This document shows, in pieces, positions 4,602 to 64,000 of a DNA stretch of 64,000 nt. The translations under genes were made by a program, and so were the position numbers. Positions within the stretch are counted from its first letter, which is position 1. Every line of letters begins with the position of its first letter. The stretch is from Dictyostelium discoideum (lineage: Eukaryota), in NCBI GenBank assembly GCA_000004695.1, contig CM000154.2:2240001-2304000 (forward strand), in the 5' to 3' direction. The notes under the pieces are model-generated. The model did no database searches. It was given only the letters and a program-made list of their open reading frames with translations, and was not told the DNA's origin.

Positions 4602-6494
4602 ATTATTCATTCTTGGAGAAATAGGTGAATCCAAAGTGTTAGCATTTCCAATTAATGTATTTTGATTATTTGGTGAGAAAAATCCAGACATCATTGGGGT
4701 CATTGGAAGTGGTGGTATACTACCATTATTAATATTACTTTCAGTATGTGCTCTTTTTCTTTGACCAGTATGTCTTTGTTTATTATTGCCATTACCATTT
4801 GGTAATGATGATAACAAATTATTTGAAGAGAGTGAAGAAGTTTCTTTCATAATTTTTAATTGAGTTGTTAATTGATTAAAGTTTTCATGAATTTGTTTAT
4901 CGATTGAACTATGATACAAGATATTATTATTATTTGAGCTATTATTTAAACTATTATTAGTTGATGAAATTGGTGACGTTGTTAAAGAGTTAACATTACT
5001 ATTATTTGAGATATTTGGTAATTGTTGAGAAGGTGAATGAATACTATTATTTGAATTATTAAGTGAATGTGGTGTTGAAATTATATTAATTGGTGAAGTT
5101 GAAGTTGTTGTTGTGGTGGTTGTTGTTGTTGCTGTTGTTGTTGATGTTGTAGTATTATTATTATTATCATTAATTGGTGAATTAATTGGTGAAGAACCTA
5201 ATAATATTTCATCTTTTGAATCATCACTACTCATTTCTTCTTCAAGTGCAACACTTGTTAATTTTTTCATATTATCTTTAATTGGTGTGACATCAATAAT
5301 ATCTTTATCTTTATGATCTTTATGATCTTTATCCTTATGATCACGAGAAGTATTTGTAGAAGAAGATTTTGGAGAATGTAAAATATCACGTTGACTATAA
5401 CTATGAGTATCCTTTACAACACTTGATGAATCATTTTCGCTATAACTTCTTTTTCTTTTTGTAATGATTTTCTTTGCTTTAATTTCATCCCATGGATCAG
5501 AGATTTGTCTCATTCTCCAATAACCATTTTGTTTGTATTGTTCCATACCACTTTCAAATAAATTTTTACTATGACTTAACATATCTTGAATTTGTTTATG
5601 CCAATTATCCGATCTTTTCTTATCCAAACATAAAAGGTTCCAATGTGCAGTCATAAAACCATAAACATCAGTCTTTAAATTTAAAAATGGTTTTTGAGGC
5701 ATTTCCAATTGAAGACAAAAGAATACTATTTTCATTATGCATGCCCATGTTGGTGATTGACTATTTGCAAATGGACTACCACGTTTACAGAGAATACATT
5801 CTTTAAAAACGCATTGAACTGATGTTGATGGTGATGGCGATGACTCTTGATTACCTCCCATTGTTGGTGAATGAAGTCCAATTGGTAATCCCCATGTTGG
5901 TGATGAAATACTATTATTACTGTTATTATTACCATTACCACTTACACTACTACGTGGATAAACAGGAGTTGGTGGTGGAGGTGGTGGTGGTGATGATACA
6001 TTATTATTATTACTACTACTGTTGTTGCTGCTGCCGCTGCCGCTGCTGCTATCATTAAAATTACCATTTGAAATACACTCAAGTATTGATGAAGGCGAAG
6101 GAGGTTGGTGAGTTGGTATTGGTGAGGATGGTGTTGATGAGGAATTATTTTTCATTTCCAATAATATCTTATAAGAAAGTGAATCATGTTTTGGTGGTTT
6201 GGATATAGTTGGTGGTGATGTTGTTCTTGGTGATAATGTACCTGCTAATAAAGATGATGTGGAAGATGGACTACCACAAGTTAATTTCTTTATTGCTCCT
6301 TCTACATCTCTAACTGCGAGCATTAATGGGCTATTTGGTAATATTGCTGGTGTAGTTTTTGGTGTAGTTGTTATTATTGGTATTGGTGTAGAAGGTGTAG
6401 TTATTCCTGTTGTTGTTGTTTTTGTTGTTTTTGTTGTTGTTGTTGATATTATTGGATTTGTCTCTCCAGAAAATACTAAACTCTCCTTTAACAT
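3747..6494 (-). CDS. Asn/Thr/Ser-rich nuclear-type protein (915 aa) with a divergent forkhead-like winged-helix segment
   Basis: Single long minus ORF with ATG at 6492-6494. The forkhead-like segment is ...SPTWACIMKIVFFCLQLEMPQKPFLNLKTDVYGFMTAHWNLLCLDKKRSDNWHKQIQDMLSHSKNLFESGMEQYKQNGYWRMRQ.... It follows the forkhead pattern W-A..I....(L.L..IY.FM)....W.NSIRHNLS.SK.F.......G.YW.M, with IRHNLS diverged to IQDMLS. It is followed by a basic KRKR nuclear-localisation-like stretch. The rest is low complexity. Confidence 0.6.
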
Positions 6495-51493: not shown

Positions 51494-57048
<5,555 letters not shown>

Positions 57049-57385: not shown

Positions 57386-57997
57386 TTATATTGAAAATTC
57401 CAATTGATTTTGGTCAATGTTTTTAATGAAAACATGATAATGTGAAATTTCTTTTATACTTTGTAAATGAAAAGGATTGATAAAGAATAAGAAACCGTTA
57501 TCGTCATTGCTGAATTCTCTATTTGTAAGTTTTGAAATGAGTTGTTTTGCATCCTCATGATCAAGAGGTTTTAAACACCATAATACCCAATGTGAGATTG
57601 ATTTATCGCAACTGTATGGGAAATCGTTTGGTCTAAAAACTAATTTTTGTTCTAAATTCTCTGGTCTAATAGTTATTAATCTATTGAGTTCAATACCTTG
57701 TTCGTCTGTATAGCTTATAGTTTGTGTTGGAAATTTAAAAACTTTGAAATCAATATAATCTTTAATAGTTTTAAATTGTTGTTTTACAACCTTTAAATGT
57801 TTCTCCATCTCTGCTTGATCCTTTAATTTTCTACCCAATATTTCTAATCTATCACCTTGTATAATTTCTTTTAAATCTCTCCAATTCCTTTCACAATAAT
57901 CAAATTGTTGTTGTACTTTTATTTCTACATTTTCATTGTTACTATTGTTGACACAACAATTTTCGTTGTTTTCTTCAACTTGATTATTGTCTAACAT
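57386..57997 (-). CDS. Conserved hypothetical protein (203 aa), no confident family assignment
   Basis: ATG at 57995-57997 with an in-frame stop upstream. Non-low-complexity C-terminal half (..RPNDFPYSCDKSISHWVLWCLKPLDHEDAKQLISKL..FLFFINPFHLQSIKEISHYHVF..) with ordinary codon usage. Confidence 0.55.
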   Translation of the reverse strand: MLDNNQVEENNENCCVNNSNNENVEIKVQQQFDYCERNWRDLKEIIQGDRLEILGRKLKDQAEMEKHLKVVKQQFKTIKDYIDFKVFKFPTQTISYTDEQGIELNRLITIRPENLEQKLVFRPNDFPYSCDKSISHWVLWCLKPLDHEDAKQLISKLTNREFSNDDNGFLFFINPFHLQSIKEISHYHVFIKNIDQNQLEFSI

Positions 57998-58122
57998 TTT
58001 CGATGTTTTATTATCTTGGTTTTCTCTGAGATATTATTTAAACATTTTATATTAGAAAAAAAAAATAAAAATAAAAATAAAAAAATAAAAAAAATAAAAA
58101 AAAAAAAATAAAATAAATAAAA

Positions 58123-58154
<32 letters not shown>

Positions 58155-58635
58155 TAATATGTAATGACAAAAAAGAATTAAAAAAAAAAAGGGGAGAAAA
58201 AATACACCACTTTTTTTTAATTTTTATTTTTATTTTTATTTTTATTTTTTTTTTTATTCTACGAATAATATTTTATAATTAAAATAATATCACTTACAAA
58301 ACATCTATCATTTTATAATTTTATATCTTTTTTTATTGGGTCGATAAAAAGGATGCAATTGAATAGAAAAAAAAAAAAAAATCAATTTAAATTTAATATT
58401 AAAGGAAAAAAATAAATTAAAATAAAAAATAAAAATAAAAAAAACAAAAAAAAAAAAAACTAAATATTAACAAAAAGAGGTAATTGCCCACCTAAAGTTT
58501 GGTTGAATTATTTCTTTTACAATTTTTTTTTCGAGCATTGTTTGTTTTAAAAAAAGTCAGTGGAATAGGTTGATAAAAAAGTGCTTATTTTTCATAAAAA
58601 AAGATATTTTTTTCCTCCTTAAAACGTTTTGCTCG

Positions 58636-58677
<42 letters not shown>

Positions 58678-59491
58678 TTTTTTGTTTTTTTGAAATAAAA
58701 AATACATAATATCTATTTTGATATTTCTAAAAACCCTTCCCCAAGTGGGAATGGAACAAATAAATGCTTGACAAGAAATAAAATTAAAAAAAAATATAAG
58801 ATTAATTTTTTCTTTATTTTTAATTAATTCTTTACCATTTTTTTTTTTTTTTTTTTTTTTTTAAAAATCATTATAATTAATTTGATTAAAAAAAAAAAAA
58901 TAAAAAAAAAATAAATAAATATTGTCTAACCAAAAATAGAGTAGAACGAGGTTGGATTTTTTTTATAATCAATCAAAAAAAAATGAAAATAATGATATTT
59001 TGGGAAAAATGAAAATAATATTTTGAAAAAGTGATTGCATTTTTTTGTGTTTTGGTCAATTCTTTTTTTTTTCCACCTTTTTTTCACCTTTTTTTTCATT
59101 TTTTTTTTTAAAAAATAAAAAAATATTTAAAATTTTGCATATAATAATTTTATCAATAATAATTATTTCTCATATTAATATTTATTTATTTGTTACTAAA
59201 TTAGTAATAATAAATTTATTTTAATATGTAGATATTTTTTAAAGTTATTTTAATTGGTACTTTCTAAATATAGAAATATTCTAAAAATAACAAAATTAAT
59301 AATAAAAATAATAAATAACAATTTAAAACAAATACATTCTTAAATTTTGACAAATTTCCTAAAATAATATTTTCCAGAAATTTGAAATATTCTTTGGAAA
59401 TATATTTTTTTTTTTTATTTTTTTTTTTTTTTTTTATATATATATGTTAAAAGAATAAAATTTTTTTTTAAAAAAAAACAATTATTTTATT

Positions 59492-62095
59492 TTATTGACT
59501 TGTAATTTTTAATTCATCTTTTGATTTATCAGCAGAAATTGTAACAACTTGATGATCTTTAATTTTACCTTCAAGTATTTGTTTTGCCATTGGATTTAAT
59601 AGAGTTTTTTGAATAACACGTTTTAATGGACGAGCACCATAGATTGGATCATAACCTTGATCGGCCAACCAATCGAGACCATCTTCTTTAACATTGAGAG
59701 CTATATGTTTTTCAGTGAGTAATTTTCTGAGATCATCTAATTGAATTTCAACGATTTTATCCATATCTTTACGAGATAAACGATTGAAAAGGATCATATC
59801 ATCGATTCTATTTAAAAATTCTGGTGGGAAACGTGAACGAACTACACCCATTACCTCTTCTCTAGCTGTTGCTGAAGGTGTATTATCAGGTAAATTTGCT
59901 AAAATTTCTGCACCCAAATTACTTGTTAGGATTACCATTGTATTTCTGAAATCTATTTTCCTACCTTGACTATCTGTGATATGACCATCATCCAAAATTT
60001 GTAAGAGTAAATTGCTAACTTCTTTATGTGCTTTTTCAAACTCATCAAATAGAACCAAAGAGTAAGGACGTCTACGTACAGCTTCAGTTAATGTACCACC
60101 CTCTTCATAGCCAACATAACCTGGTGGAGCACCAATTAATCTACTTACAGAGAATTTCTCCATGTATTCAGACATATCTATACGAATCAAAGCATTTGGA
60201 CTATCAAACATGAATTCTGCCAAAGTTCTACAAAGTTGAGTTTTACCAACACCAGTTGGACCCAAGAATAAGAAGGAGCCCAATGGACGACTATGACTAT
60301 GGAGTCCAGCACGACTAATTCTAACGGCATTACTTACGGCAGTGACAGCCTCTGGTTGACCAATTACTTGTGAACCTAATTCATCCTCCATCTTAAGTAG
60401 TTTCTCCTTTTCACCCATGAGCATACTATGAACTGGAATACCGGTGGCTTTCGAAATTACCAAAGCAACATCTTTTGCAGTGACAGCATCACTCACCATT
60501 GAAATATCACTCGATTGTTCTTCACCCTCTTTTGGAATTTGTTTCTCCAATTGTGGTATAATACTATATGCCAACTCACCAGCTCTTGCCAAATCACCTT
60601 TTCTTTGAGCTTGTTGAAGTTCAATCTTTGCTCTATCCAATTTTTCAACTGCAGTTTTTCTAATGGAAAGTTGTTCTTTCTCCTTCTTCCAAACTTCAGT
60701 GAGTTTATTATATTGTTTATCTTTTTCTTTCAATTCCTTCTCTAACTTTTCACGACGTTCCTTTGAGACTTGATCTTTCTCCTTTTTCAATGCTTCCAAT
60801 TCAATCTTTGATACGATAATTTGACGATTTAAATTTTCAATCTCCTCTGGGAGTGATTCTTGTTGGAGACGTAAACGACTTGCAGCCTCATCGATTAAAT
60901 CGATTGCTTTATCTGGTAAGAAACGATCGGTGATATAACGTTGTGAATTTACAACAGCAGCCACCAATGCACTATCAGTTATACGAACACCATGATGAAC
61001 TTCATAACGCTCTTTTAAGCCACGAAGAATTGCGATGGAGTCCTCAACCGATGGCTCTTGAACTAAAACACTTTGAAATCTTCTTGCAAGTGCAGGATCC
61101 TTCTCAATGTATTTTCTGTATTCTGCAGTGGTAGTTGCACCAACACAATGTAAATCACCTCTTGCCAATTGTGGCTTCAACATATTCGATGCATCCATAC
61201 CACCCTCTACTGCACCCGCACCAACCAATGTATGAAGTTCATCAATGAATAATATTACTTCACCTTTAAAATGTGCGACATCCTTTAGAATCGATTTCAT
61301 TCTCTCCTCGAAATCACCTCTAAACTTTGCACCAGCCACAATCGATGCTAAATCCAATGTCAATACACGTTTATTCTTTATACTATCTGGTACATCACCA
61401 TTTATAATTCTTTGTGCTAAACCTTCAACAATTGCAGTTTTACCAACACCTGGTTCACCAATCAACACTGGATTGTTTTTAGTTCTTCTACTTAATACTT
61501 GAATTGTACGACGAATTTCTTCATCTCTACCAATTACTGGGTCTAATTTACCACTCTTTGCTATCTCTGTTAAATCTTTAGTATACTTTTTTAATGCTTC
61601 TCCTGGTGGAACATTATCAGGTGATACCCATGGTTCTAAATAATTAAAAATAAAAAAAAGGTGTTAAAAAAAGGAACCTTTTACCAATTATTTATATATA
61701 TATATGATTATTAAATAAATTTATTATTTACCTTGTGGTGGTGGTTGTTGACCTCCTCCATTGCCTCCTACATTAATTTATAAAAAAAAAAAAAATTTTA
61801 AAGAAAATATTTAAGTAAAATATTCAAAAAATTTATAAATTCTTCAATTATAATCATAAGATTATTATTTAATATTTATTTATTTACCTTGAAAATTTCT
61901 AATTTGTTGATAAAATAATGATGATGATGGTGATGAATTTGAAAACAATGAACTATTTGTTAAATTATTATTTTTATTATTGTTGATTAAAATTTTATTT
62001 ATATTATTAGTTGTTGAAATAAAATATCTTTTATTTGAACTCTTAATAATATTTGAAATAGGATTAGTTTTAATAATATTTGATAATCTATTCAT
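59492..62095 (-). CDS. clpB: Mitochondrial ClpB/Hsp78-type AAA+ disaggregase lacking the ClpB N-domain; 3 exons: 61888..62095, 61732..61767 (36-nt micro-exon), 59492..61635; ~786 aa
   Basis: Exon 1 [29 protein letters not shown]...[10 protein letters not shown](G) is presequence-like and ends G|GTAAAT. Exon 2 is GA GGC AAT GGA GGA GGT CAA CAA CCA CCA CCA CAA G ([11 protein letters not shown]), bounded by aatgtag and GTAAAT. Exon 3 enters at tatttag|AACCATGG: [77 protein letters not shown]..., almost identical to E. coli ClpB NBD1. The coiled-coil M-domain and NBD2 ([12 protein letters not shown]...GARPLKR) follow. The track ORF 59492..61468 starts at an internal GTG. Confidence 0.8.
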
Positions 62096-62518
62096 GTTTT
62101 TTTTTGTTATGTATATTAATTAATTTCTTTTTTTTTTTTTTTTTTTTTTTTTTTGTATCAAATGTACAAAGAATTAATAATGTCTTAGAAAATTAAAAAA
62201 ATAAATTGAAAAAAAAAATAATAAAATAATAAAATTCAATTATAATTTGTTTGGAGTTTTTTTTTTTTTTTTTATGGAATAATTTAATTATTATCTTTGA
62301 AATTTTGTGTGTAATAAACTACAAATAATCTAAAATAGCAATGTTGCTGTGTGTATGTGAAAATGTAAAATAAAAAAAAAAAGGGTGAACATGCCACTAT
62401 TTAATTTAAAAAATTTTTTATTTTTTTATTTTTTTTATTTTTTTATTTTTATTTTTCGTCTAAATTGCGTTTAAAAAAAAATGAAAAATAATTGCAATTT
62501 AATTTAAAATTCATAGCC

Positions 62519-62558
<40 letters not shown>

Positions 62559-62812
62559 ATTTTTAAAAGGGATTGGGTGGGTTTAATTTAATAATTTTTT
62601 TGGTTTTTTTAATTTCCATTTTGAAGGAGGTTTTTAATTTTTTTTAGTGAAATGAGTTTGAAAAAAAAAAAAAAAAAAAAAAAAAAACTATTTTTGGAAG
62701 TGATTGCTTTTGTTTTTTATTTCACTTTTTTTTTTTTTTTTTTTTTTTTTTAGTGTTTGGTTGGGTTTCTTAATTTCTTTTAGTGCATTGAGTTTTTTTT
62801 TAAAAAAAAATC

Positions 62813-64000
62813 TTAGTATTTAGAAGGTGAAGAGGATCTTCTTCTATACCCTCTGCTTCTACTTCTACTTCTGCTTCTACTTTTACTTTTATTCAAACTC
62901 CTACTTCTACTTCGACTTCTACTATAATCTCTAACTCGTCTATTTCTACTTCTACTTCTGCTTCTACTTCTACTTCTACTTAAACTTTTATTTATTCTTT
63001 TATTGTTATTTGAGTTTCTTCCAAAACTTCTACTTCTGCTTCTACTTCTACTTCCACTTTTACCTCTACTTCTACTTCTTGTTCTACTTCTACTATAGTT
63101 TCTTCTTCTTGGACTATAATCTCTATCAATTGATCTATTATTATTATTATTATTATTATTGTTGTTATTATAATGATCTCTATTATATCTACCACCTCCA
63201 CTATTTCTTCCACCACTTGAAATTCTATATCTATTATCTCTATTATCTCTAACATCTCTCATATCTCTACTACTACCACTACCACCTCTATAACTACTAC
63301 TACCACTAGAAGTGGTAGTAGTTCTTCTTTGATCAATTCCTCTTGATTTAAAAGATTGACTTGAAGAAGGTTTTGGATTTAAATATCTTACAGTTACAAT
63401 TTGACCATCGATTCTACCACCATCCATATATCTTTTTGCTTTATCTCTTTCATCTTTTTGATGAAAATACAATAAAGCATAACCCATTGGTTGATCAATT
63501 TCTTTGTCCCATAAGAAATCAATATCTTTTATTGAACCGAAATTTTCAAATATCTCTTGTAAATGGTCTTTATTAACATTGGGTGTTAATCTATCAACTC
63601 TAATTGGTGATAAACTATATGATCTTGGTGGTGGTGGTGGTGGTGGTGGTAAAGTTGATCTTGATCATACTTCTAGATCTTGATCTAGAATGTGAATTTC
63701 TTGGACGATTATTATTGTTGTGATGATGATGATGATGATGATGATGATGTTGTTGTTGTTGGTGATGATATTGCTTTTTTGGAGGTGGTGATCTACGTCT
63801 TGGTGAACGTGATCTTGATAATTGTCTTCTGTATGGTGATGGTGATCTCGCTCTAATTGGTGAACGTGATCTTGATAATTGTCTTCTTGATGATGATGAT
63901 GATGATGAATGTAATGGCGACCTTCTACTACTACCAACACCACCACCACCACCTCTATAATTACTTTCTCTATAGGGTGAGCTACTTTTTTTATCATTAT
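62813..64000 (-). CDS. rnps1: RNPS1-like SR protein, 5'-partial: N-terminal RS region (continues past the window end), RRM, C-terminal RS domain. An apparent frame change lies between the RS region and the RRM at ~63618-63664
   Basis: Frame A (63664 to 62813): SRSTLPPPPPPPPRSYSLSPIRVDRLTPNVNKDHLQEIFENFGSIKDIDFLWDKEIDQPMGYALLYFHQKDERDKAKRYMDGGRIDGQIVTV.... Human RNPS1 has KVHIGRLTRNVTKDHIMEIFSTYGKIKMID...KGYAYVEFENPDEAEKALKHMDGGQIDGQEITA. A long RS-dipeptide tail follows. Upstream, the RS-type sequence (..RSRSPIRARSPSPYRRQLSRSRSPRRRSPPPKK..(H)n..NNNNRPRNSHSRSRSRS) is in a different frame that terminates at TAG 63615-63617. Frame A has TGA at 63665-63667. Confidence 0.6.

What the first reader, a model, noticed from the sequence alone, without database searches (positions are those of the whole stretch)
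59492..62095. ClpB/Hsp78 with bacterial-grade conservation, missing N-domain, and a 36-nt micro-exon
The NBD1 region is nearly identical to E. coli ClpB over long stretches ([49 protein letters not shown]). The gene starts with a presequence-like exon (MNRLSNIIK...) and a 36-nt Gly/Gln/Pro exon ([11 protein letters not shown]), then enters NBD1 directly. That means the ClpB N-terminal substrate-binding domain is absent, as in yeast Hsp78. The micro-exon and both introns are easy to miss. The track ORF begins at an internal GTG.
Basis: partly seen in the sequence, partly recalled or inferred. Interest (0 to 1): 0.5.

Follow-up and report, generated by a model that had tools for sequence, protein, structure and literature searches.

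The report
Dictyostelium mitochondrial ClpB (Hsp78) gene

Summary

- **Organism and model:** The window is Dictyostelium discoideum DNA (22% GC). The minus-strand model has exons 62095-61888, 61767-61732 and 61635-59492, with GT..AG introns of 120 and 96 nt. It translates to 795 aa identical to XP_636444.1 / UniProt Q54I27.
- **Similarity to ClpB:** Residues 94-785 align without a gap to E. coli ClpB 159-850 at 61% identity; the quoted stretch matches 48 of 49. All catalytic residues are kept.
- **Missing N-domain:** No Clp_N domain is encoded in the gene or anywhere else in the 64-kb window.
- **The micro-exon:** It is supported by comparison, not by transcripts. It and its splice sites are conserved in four species of the D. 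discoideum complex, while the flanking introns are riddled with indels. In D. purpureum, P. violaceum and the intronless T. lacteum gene, the same Gly/Gln/Pro peptide lies in one ORF with NBD1.
- **Presequence:** The first 81 residues carry eight basic and no acidic residues and end in an R-x-F motif, which fits a mitochondrial presequence. Localisation remains inferred.
- **Family:** Loss of the N-domain and alpha-proteobacterial ancestry are textbook Hsp78 features.

The parts
62096..62812 (-). Upstream intergenic region (about 718 bp, very AT-rich). Presumed promoter and 5' UTR.
   Evidence: It lies between the stop of the upstream RS-rich/RRM gene (62813) and the ATG at 62095. No three-unit heat-shock element with up to 1 mismatch was found here. 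The promoter role is inferred.
61888..62095 (-). Exon 1 (208 nt, residues 1-69 plus 1 nt): putative mitochondrial presequence MNRLSNIIK...QQIRNFQ.
   Evidence: The 69 residues hold 8 Lys/Arg, no Asp/Glu and 17 Ser/Thr, and the first acidic residue is E82. The segment ends in R-N-F-Q; an R-x-(F/Y) motif recurs at this point in homologues. AlphaFold pLDDT is below 50.
61768..61887 (-). Intron 1 (120 nt, phase 1, GTAAAT..TGTAG, 8% GC).
   Evidence: Position and phase are shared with D. cf. discoideum, D. citrinum, D. dimigraforme, D. purpureum and P. violaceum.
61732..61767 (-). Exon 2, a 36-nt micro-exon contributing to G70 through E82 ([12 protein letters not shown]).
   Evidence: The last 22 nt and both splice sites are invariant in four species, and the changes seen are synonymous, N-to-Q, or a 3-nt deletion. 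The orthologous peptide is encoded contiguously with NBD1 in D. purpureum, P. violaceum and T. lacteum.
61636..61731 (-). Intron 2 (96 nt, phase 1, GTAAAT..TTTAG, 12% GC). Specific to the D. discoideum complex.
   Evidence: It is absent at the CAAG|AACC site in D. purpureum, P. violaceum and T. lacteum. Its length varies (96, 128, 98 and 143 nt) among close relatives.
61598..61635 (-). Start of exon 3: the conserved motif [13 protein letters not shown] (residues 82-94) that precedes NBD1 in N-domain-less eukaryotic ClpBs.
   Evidence: 43 of the N-domain-less hits carry W-V-x-P-..-P-x-G, and 0 of 60 bacterial ClpBs do. pLDDT is about 57.
60851..61600 (-). NBD1 (residues 94-343): Walker A K147, Walker B E214, pore loop F186, Arg fingers R266/R267.
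   Evidence: (75% identity to E. coli ClpB 159-408).
60503..60850 (-). Middle (M) coiled-coil domain (residues 344-459), including Y438, which corresponds to E. coli Y503.
   Evidence: 46% identity; long helices 345-365, 370-427, 430-447.
59492..60502 (-). NBD2 plus the C-terminal D2-small domain (residues 460-795) and the TAA stop (59494-59492).
   Evidence: AAA_2, ClpB_D2-small; 56% identity; K546, Y588, E613, N654, R691, R750.

Best explanation
Window 59492-62095 (minus strand) is the nuclear gene of Dictyostelium discoideum for its mitochondrial ClpB-type AAA+ disaggregase. This is the Hsp78 orthologue, annotated as XP_636444.1 / Q54I27.

**Shown here**
- The gene has three exons.
- The protein has two AAA+ modules with every catalytic residue intact, a ClpB-type middle coiled coil and the D2-small domain.
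- It has no Clp_N domain.
- It belongs to a monophyletic group of N-domain-less eukaryotic ClpBs next to alpha-proteobacterial ClpB.

**Inferred**
- Exon 1 encodes a matrix-targeting presequence that is cut near R66-N-F-Q69, a processing-peptidase R-2/R-3-type motif.
- The mature protein therefore starts with a disordered Gly/Gln/Pro linker (the micro-exon peptide) and the conserved [13 protein letters not shown] motif, followed directly by NBD1. This resembles the natural N-truncated ClpB80 of E. coli.
- It should form hexamers and, together with mitochondrial Hsp70 docking on the M-domain, thread aggregated matrix proteins through its pore using ATP, as shown for yeast Hsp78.

**Origin of the micro-exon**
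- It exists because a second intron sits at a CAAG|AA site in the D. discoideum complex only.
- The peptide it encodes is older than that intron.
For: **Identity and organism.** The model is an exact match to the annotated AX4 protein. The window is 22% GC with AT-rich GT..AG introns.

**Domains.**
- Pfam finds the expected domains without Clp_N.
- The alignment to E. coli ClpB 159-850 is ungapped, E = 7e-275, 61% identity.
- The best NCBIfam model is ClpB, profile positions 154-849.
- The catalytic residues are kept.
- No N-domain coding sequence exists in the 64-kb window.

**Exon structure.** Orthologue exon structures, micro-exon conservation, and the contiguous coding in D. purpureum, P. 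violaceum and T. lacteum support the model.

**Presequence.** Composition and the conserved R-x-F/Y motif fit a presequence. Residues 1-82 are predicted disordered and the rest is confident.

**Phylogeny.** The N-domain-less eukaryotic sequences are monophyletic in 100/100 bootstraps, next to the sampled alpha-proteobacteria. The four bacterial hits that carry an organism name are all Alphaproteobacteria, and the bacterial hits are 64-67% identical to the query.

**Literature.**
- Hsp78 has a targeting sequence and lacks the ClpB N-domain (PMC9574514).
- Hsp78 is the clpB inherited from the mitochondrial ancestor (PMC4339202).
- Dictyostelium sequences fall in the mitochondrial-78 clade (PMC12283024).
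Against: - No transcript data were available, so the two junctions are supported only by annotation and comparison.
- No targeting predictor could be run. A simple amphipathic-helix test on residues 1-40 was not better than shuffles (38% of shuffles reached the observed value).
- No paper on the localisation or function of this Dictyostelium protein was found.
- The protein scores below the curated full-length cut-off of TIGR03346 (1157 against 1232 bits) because the N-domain positions are unmatched.
- The upstream intergenic region has no canonical three-unit heat-shock element.
Confidence: 0.88

Rival explanations
1. The micro-exon is facultative. Because it is 36 nt long and flanked by two phase-1 introns, skipping it keeps the frame (…RNFQ-EPWV…). 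A shorter isoform may be made, or may even be the main product.
For: No transcript evidence was consulted. The encoded segment is low-complexity, predicted disordered, and variable in length between genera.
Against: The exon and all four splice sites are conserved in four species, while the introns around them are full of substitutions and indels. Species without intron 2 encode the peptide constitutively. A Gly/Gln-rich segment precedes the W-V motif in most homologues, including transcript-derived ones.
Confidence: 0.08
2. The protein is not, or not only, a mitochondrial matrix protein. The N/S/K-rich N-terminus may be ordinary Dictyostelium low-complexity sequence, and the enzyme may act in the cytosol or another compartment.
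For: Asn-rich tracts are common in this genome. The amphipathicity test was not significant. No localisation experiment was found.
Against: - There are no acidic residues in the first 81 positions against 8 basic ones.
- An R-x-(F/Y) motif is conserved at the end of otherwise unconserved leaders of similar length across many eukaryotes.
- The protein is closer to bacterial ClpB than to cytosolic Hsp104 (917 against 657-811 bits).
- It belongs to the clade described as mitochondrial Hsp78 (PMC4339202, PMC12283024).
Confidence: 0.05
3. The high similarity to bacterial ClpB reflects bacterial contamination of the assembly, or a recent horizontal transfer from food bacteria, rather than an old organelle-derived nuclear gene.
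For: The only support is the similarity itself: 61% to E. coli and 64-67% to alpha-proteobacteria.
Against: - The gene has two spliceosomal introns and AT-rich eukaryotic flanks.
- It lies between eukaryotic genes in conserved synteny.
- Orthologues follow the dictyostelid species tree and group with other eukaryotes in 100/100 bootstraps.
- The same protein is present in several independent D. discoideum assemblies.
Confidence: 0.01

Closest known systems
Saccharomyces cerevisiae Hsp78 (mitochondrial ClpB-type disaggregase)
   Same: It is nuclear-encoded, has an N-terminal targeting leader, lacks the Clp_N domain, and has two AAA+ modules plus an M-domain (PMC9574514). It has alpha-proteobacterial ancestry (PMC4339202). 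Dictyostelium sequences are placed in the same 'MT78' clade (PMC12283024).
   Different: - No direct sequence comparison with yeast Hsp78 was run here.
- The Dictyostelium protein and most non-fungal relatives carry a Gly/Gln/Pro linker and a W-V-x-P-D-x-x-P-x-G-E motif before NBD1. From my recollection of the yeast sequence, that motif is not obvious there.
- Nothing has been tested experimentally in Dictyostelium.
Bacterial ClpB (E. coli; alpha-proteobacterial ClpB)
   Same: The alignment to E. coli ClpB 159-850 is ungapped at 61% identity, with all Walker, sensor, Arg-finger and NBD2 pore-loop residues and the M-domain tyrosine kept. The best NCBIfam model is ClpB.
   Different: - The N-terminal domain (about 145 aa) is absent and is replaced by a leader plus a short linker.
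- The pore loop-1 Tyr is Phe.
- The gene is nuclear and has introns.
ClpB80, the N-terminally truncated E. coli ClpB made from an internal GTG start (my own knowledge)
   Same: The predicted mature Dictyostelium protein begins about 25 residues before the ALKKY helix of NBD1. This is essentially the same architecture as ClpB80.
   Different: It arises from processing of a targeting leader rather than from alternative translation initiation. No full-length partner isoform exists here.
Cytosolic Hsp104/Hsp101 of eukaryotes
   Same: It is the same Hsp100 class-1 architecture, with NBD1, M-domain and NBD2.
   Different: Hsp104 proteins keep an N-domain. They are more distant: 657-811 bits against 917 for E. 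coli ClpB.

Membership tests
ClpB/Hsp104 subfamily of Hsp100 (class 1 AAA+) | Two AAA+ nucleotide-binding domains with intact Walker A/B, sensor and arginine-finger residues. | tested here: met
   Pfam finds AAA, AAA_lid_9 and AAA_2. K147, E214, T250, R266/R267, K546, E613, N654, R691 and R750 are conserved. Residue numbering is taken from the E. coli literature through the ungapped alignment.
ClpB/Hsp104 subfamily of Hsp100 (class 1 AAA+) | A long coiled-coil middle domain inserted in NBD1. This distinguishes ClpB/Hsp104 from ClpA. | tested here: met
   The region is ungapped against E. coli ClpB 409-524 at 46% identity. The model predicts helices 345-447. The ClpB profile scores 1157 bits against 755 for ClpA and 764 for ClpV.
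ClpB/Hsp104 subfamily of Hsp100 (class 1 AAA+) | N-terminal Clp_N (Clp R) domain. | tested here: not met
   There is no PF02861 hit. ClpB profile positions 1-153 are unmatched and the score (1157) is below the curated cut-off (1232). No Clp_N coding sequence exists anywhere in the window.
ClpB/Hsp104 subfamily of Hsp100 (class 1 AAA+) | No ClpP-docking loop, so the protein acts as a stand-alone disaggregase rather than a protease partner. | tested here: met
   This is indirect. The 691-residue alignment to E. coli ClpB, which lacks the loop (my own knowledge), has no insertion at all.
Mitochondrial Hsp78-type ClpB | Lacks the ClpB N-domain. | tested here: met
   The family description is in PMC9574514.
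Mitochondrial Hsp78-type ClpB | Cleavable N-terminal mitochondrial targeting sequence. | tested here: inconclusive
   The composition fits: net charge +8, no acidic residue before E82, Ser/Thr-rich, and an R-N-F-Q motif conserved as R-x-F/Y in homologues. The hydrophobic-moment test was not significant. TargetP and MitoFates could not be run.
Mitochondrial Hsp78-type ClpB | Belongs to the eukaryotic clade that is sister to alpha-proteobacterial ClpB. | tested here: met
   In a neighbour-joining tree on 688 columns, the N-domain-less eukaryotic sequences are monophyletic in 100/100 bootstraps, next to 9 alpha-proteobacterial-type sequences, with E. coli as outgroup. Sampling is thin, with only one non-alpha outgroup. 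The result is consistent with PMC4339202 and PMC12283024.
Mitochondrial Hsp78-type ClpB | Located in the mitochondrial matrix and resolubilises aggregates together with mitochondrial Hsp70. | not testable with these tools
   Only the M-domain tyrosine that contacts DnaK in E. coli is seen to be conserved (Y438).

The most novel reading that the evidence does not exclude
Eukaryotic mitochondrial ClpBs outside fungi may have replaced the lost N-domain with a short functional module: a Gly/Gln/Pro-rich flexible linker followed by the conserved W-V-x-P-D-A-x-P-x-G-E motif at the mature N-terminus. The module is present in nearly all complete N-domain-less hits and in none of 60 bacterial ClpBs. 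It could act in substrate or Hsp70 engagement, or in gating the NBD1 pore. As far as I could see in the papers searched, it has not been described. A smaller point: intron 2 looks like a recent gain at a CAAG|AA proto-splice site within the D. discoideum complex, which created the micro-exon.
Probability: 0.15. Interest if true: 0.35.

Novelty: already known. Interest (0 to 1): 0.1.

Why it matters
It matters little beyond quality control.

The gene itself is annotated. Its family is well described, including loss of the N-domain, alpha-proteobacterial origin and disaggregase function.

Two modest leads remain:
- the uncharacterised W-V-x-P-D motif at the mature N-terminus of non-fungal Hsp78-type proteins;
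- a dated case of intron gain that produced a 36-nt exon.

Tried and rejected
- **Hidden N-domain exon.** A profile of 58 bacterial Clp_N domains and tblastn against the six-frame window gave only noise (best E = 1.7 and 0.097, neither near the gene). The full-length control aligned from its residue 161.
- **Heat-shock elements in the 718-bp upstream region.** None was found with up to 1 mismatch. Window-wide counts were below the shuffle expectation.
- **Intron 2 as a copy of intron 1.** Local alignment scores were not above shuffles in 3 of 4 species. Rejected.
- **Structured RNAs in or near the introns.** There was no Rfam match in 58000-64000.
- **Amphipathic-helix test of the leader.** Not significant.
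- **Literature on this specific protein.** Searching 'Q54I27' found nothing. A microarray table lists a D. discoideum 'Chaperone clpB' (DDB0188234) that goes down with other heat-shock genes on Pseudomonas. I could not tell whether that is this gene or the cytosolic paralogue.
- **Structure prediction.** It added only that residues 1-82 are disordered and the remainder is a confident ClpB fold. No fold search was needed.

Full report
**Observation**

The window has 22% G+C and long A/T runs between genes. The region 59492-62095 was read on the minus strand.

- The bacterial-style ORF list shows a 658-aa ORF, 59492..61468, that starts at a GTG inside the P-loop region. It also shows a separate 71-aa ORF, 61880..62095, starting MNRLSNIIK.
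- Joining 62095-61888, 61767-61732 and 61635-59492 gives a 2388-nt reading frame with a single terminal stop, encoding 795 aa.
- The removed pieces are 120 nt (61887-61768) and 96 nt (61731-61636). Both start GTAAAT and end TAG, both are phase 1, and they are 8% and 12% G+C against 30-43% in the exons.

**Identity**

An exact-sequence look-up finds this 795-aa protein as XP_636444.1 / EAL62939.1 / UniProt Q54I27, 'AAA ATPase domain-containing protein', Dictyostelium discoideum AX4. Near-identical proteins occur in further D. discoideum assemblies. The gene model is therefore the public one.

**What the protein is**

- Pfam finds AAA (NBD1), AAA_lid_9, AAA_2 (NBD2) and ClpB_D2-small, and no Clp_N.
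- Against solved structures, residues 94-785 align to E. coli ClpB 159-850 with E = 7e-275 and no gap. Identity is 423/691 = 61%: 75% in NBD1, 46% in the M-domain and 56% in NBD2.
- Bacterial ClpBs score higher (917, 856 and 831 bits) than cytosolic Hsp104s (657-811 bits).
- The best NCBIfam model is the ClpB equivalog TIGR03346, matched over profile positions 154-849 of 853. Its score of 1157 bits is below the curated cut-off of 1232 because the N-domain positions are missing. ClpV and ClpA score about 760.
- Walker A/B lysines and glutamates, sensor-1, sensor-2, the arginine fingers, the NBD2 pore-loop tyrosine and the M-domain tyrosine equivalent to E. coli Y503 are all present. The NBD1 pore-loop tyrosine is a phenylalanine, as in 44 of 54 N-domain-less relatives.
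- An AlphaFold model built on 44 sequences has mean pLDDT 79.7. Residues 1-82 are below 50 and the remainder is a confident ClpB-like fold with long M-domain helices.

**Is an N-domain hidden elsewhere?**

No.
- A profile built from the first 150 residues of 58 bacterial ClpBs, and tblastn with the same segments, found nothing meaningful in any frame of the 64-kb window. A full-length bacterial ClpB aligned from its residue 161 to 61600..59519.
- The next gene upstream (at least 63625..62813, same strand) encodes an RRM/RS-rich protein.
- All dictyostelid orthologues lack PF02861. So do proteins from Balamuthia, Capsaspora, Galdieria and Arcella, and 'complete' transcript-derived ORFs. The bacterial hits have it.

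**The micro-exon**

I had no transcript data, so I used comparison. Genomic loci were fetched for eight orthologues and the annotated proteins were threaded back onto the DNA.

- Intron 1 (phase 1, after R-N-F/Y-Q) is shared by D. discoideum, D. cf. discoideum, D. citrinum, D. dimigraforme, D. purpureum and Polysphondylium violaceum.
- Intron 2 (phase 1, between PPPQ and EPWV) occurs only in the first four. There it delimits a 36-nt exon, or 33 nt in D. dimigraforme.
- Among those four, the exon's last 22 nt and all splice dinucleotides are invariant. The differences are synonymous, an Asn-to-Gln change, or a one-codon deletion. Intron lengths are 120/103/101/90 and 96/128/98/143 nt, with many indels.
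- In D. purpureum, P. violaceum and the intronless Tieghemostelium lacteum gene, the same Gly/Gln/Pro peptide is encoded in one ORF with NBD1, running straight through ...CAAG|AACCATGGGT....
- The peptide is therefore genuine coding sequence and predates intron 2. The intron was most simply gained within the D. discoideum complex.
- Intron 2 is not a recognisable copy of intron 1.
- Because the exon is symmetric, skipping it would remain in frame. Conservation argues against routine skipping, but only junction reads can exclude it.

**The leader**

- Residues 1-69 contain 8 Lys/Arg, no Asp/Glu, 17 Ser/Thr and 17 Asn. The first acidic residue is E82.
- Leaders of homologues are unconserved in sequence and similar in length. 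They end in a recurrent R-x-(F/Y)-(x)-(N)-G pattern, for example KRFYQG, KRFYANG, RFYSNG and RNFQG.
- This pattern matches the R-2/R-3 processing-peptidase/Icp55 motif known from yeast and plants (established knowledge, not tested here).
- A simple hydrophobic-moment test was not significant.
- Mitochondrial import and cleavage near F68/Q69 are therefore inferred, not shown.

**Evolutionary placement**

- The four bacterial hits that carry an organism name are Alphaproteobacteria (Dongiaceae, Nisaea, Stellaceae and an unclassified one), and the bacterial hits are 64-67% identical to the query.
- A neighbour-joining tree on 688 columns groups all N-domain-less eukaryotic sequences in 100/100 bootstraps, beside the sampled alpha-proteobacteria, with E. 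coli as outgroup. It also recovers the dictyostelid species relationships. Sampling is limited.
- This agrees with published trees in which Hsp78 is the clpB inherited from the mitochondrial ancestor (PMC4339202) and Dictyostelium sequences fall in the mitochondrial-78 clade (PMC12283024).
- Yeast Hsp78 is described as having a targeting sequence and lacking the bacterial N-terminal substrate-binding domain (PMC9574514).

**Mechanism (inferred from the family)**

After import and leader removal, the protein should assemble into hexamers. With mitochondrial Hsp70 bound to the M-domain, it should pull aggregated matrix proteins through its central pore using ATP.

**Verdict**

The feature is an already annotated member of a well-known family, and interest is low.

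The one thing I did not find described is a W-V-x-P-D-A-x-P-x-G-E motif immediately before NBD1. It is present in 43 of the N-domain-less hits, which is nearly all that are complete at the N-terminus, and in none of 60 bacterial ClpBs. In the model it has only intermediate confidence, pLDDT about 57.

Noticed in passing
window 61598-61635 (residues 82-94); homologues P0009-P0057: A conserved motif, (Q/E)-P-W-V-x-P-D-(A/N)-x-P-x-G-E, sits directly before the ALKKY helix of NBD1. It is preceded by a Gly/Gln/Pro-rich stretch. It is found in 43 of the N-domain-less eukaryotic ClpBs retrieved and in 0 of 60 bacterial ClpBs. Its function is unknown.
   Followed up: partly
window 62813-63625 (minus strand); P0011: The upstream neighbour encodes an RRM followed by a long Arg/Ser-rich tail. 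In another dictyostelid, the public model P0011 (1163 aa) fuses this neighbour to the ClpB gene and drops the presequence exon.
   Followed up: partly
window 57386-57997 (minus strand): The downstream neighbour is a DUF3605 protein (Pfam E = 6e-28). The ClpB-then-DUF3605 order is kept in D. purpureum, D. citrinum and D. dimigraforme.
   Followed up: partly
L004:1695-2450 (-) and L007:1870-2411 (-): In Cavenderia fasciculata and Acytostelium subglobosum, a small heat-shock protein (HSP20) gene lies head-to-head with the ClpB orthologue, about 550-590 bp away. This suggests a shared stress promoter. D. discoideum has a different neighbour at that position.
   Followed up: no
L004:3544-3650 and 4848-4930; L007:3481-3564: Cavenderia has phase-0 introns at the identical spot (GVGK|T) of both Walker A motifs, in NBD1 and NBD2. 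Acytostelium shares the NBD1 one. None of the group-4 species has these introns.
   Followed up: no
window 61076-61078 (F186): The NBD1 pore-loop aromatic residue is Phe rather than the Tyr251 of E. coli ClpB. Phe is the commoner state in the N-domain-less eukaryotic set (44 F to 10 Y). The bacterial hits are mixed (34 Y to 23 F).
   Followed up: partly
window 59372-59384: The only heat-shock-element-like site near the gene (TTCCAGAAATTTG, 1 mismatch) lies about 110 bp 3' of the stop codon, not in the promoter. Window-wide counts of such sites are below the shuffle expectation.
   Followed up: partly
window 51494-57048 (plus strand): Two large ORFs (1389 and 407 aa) have very long poly-Asn, poly-Thr and Asn/Ser tracts and Cys/His-rich segments (…CLVCF…CNHSYCIDCW… and …[30 protein letters not shown]…). 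They look like the two halves of one RING-between-RING type ligase gene split by an intron.
   Followed up: no
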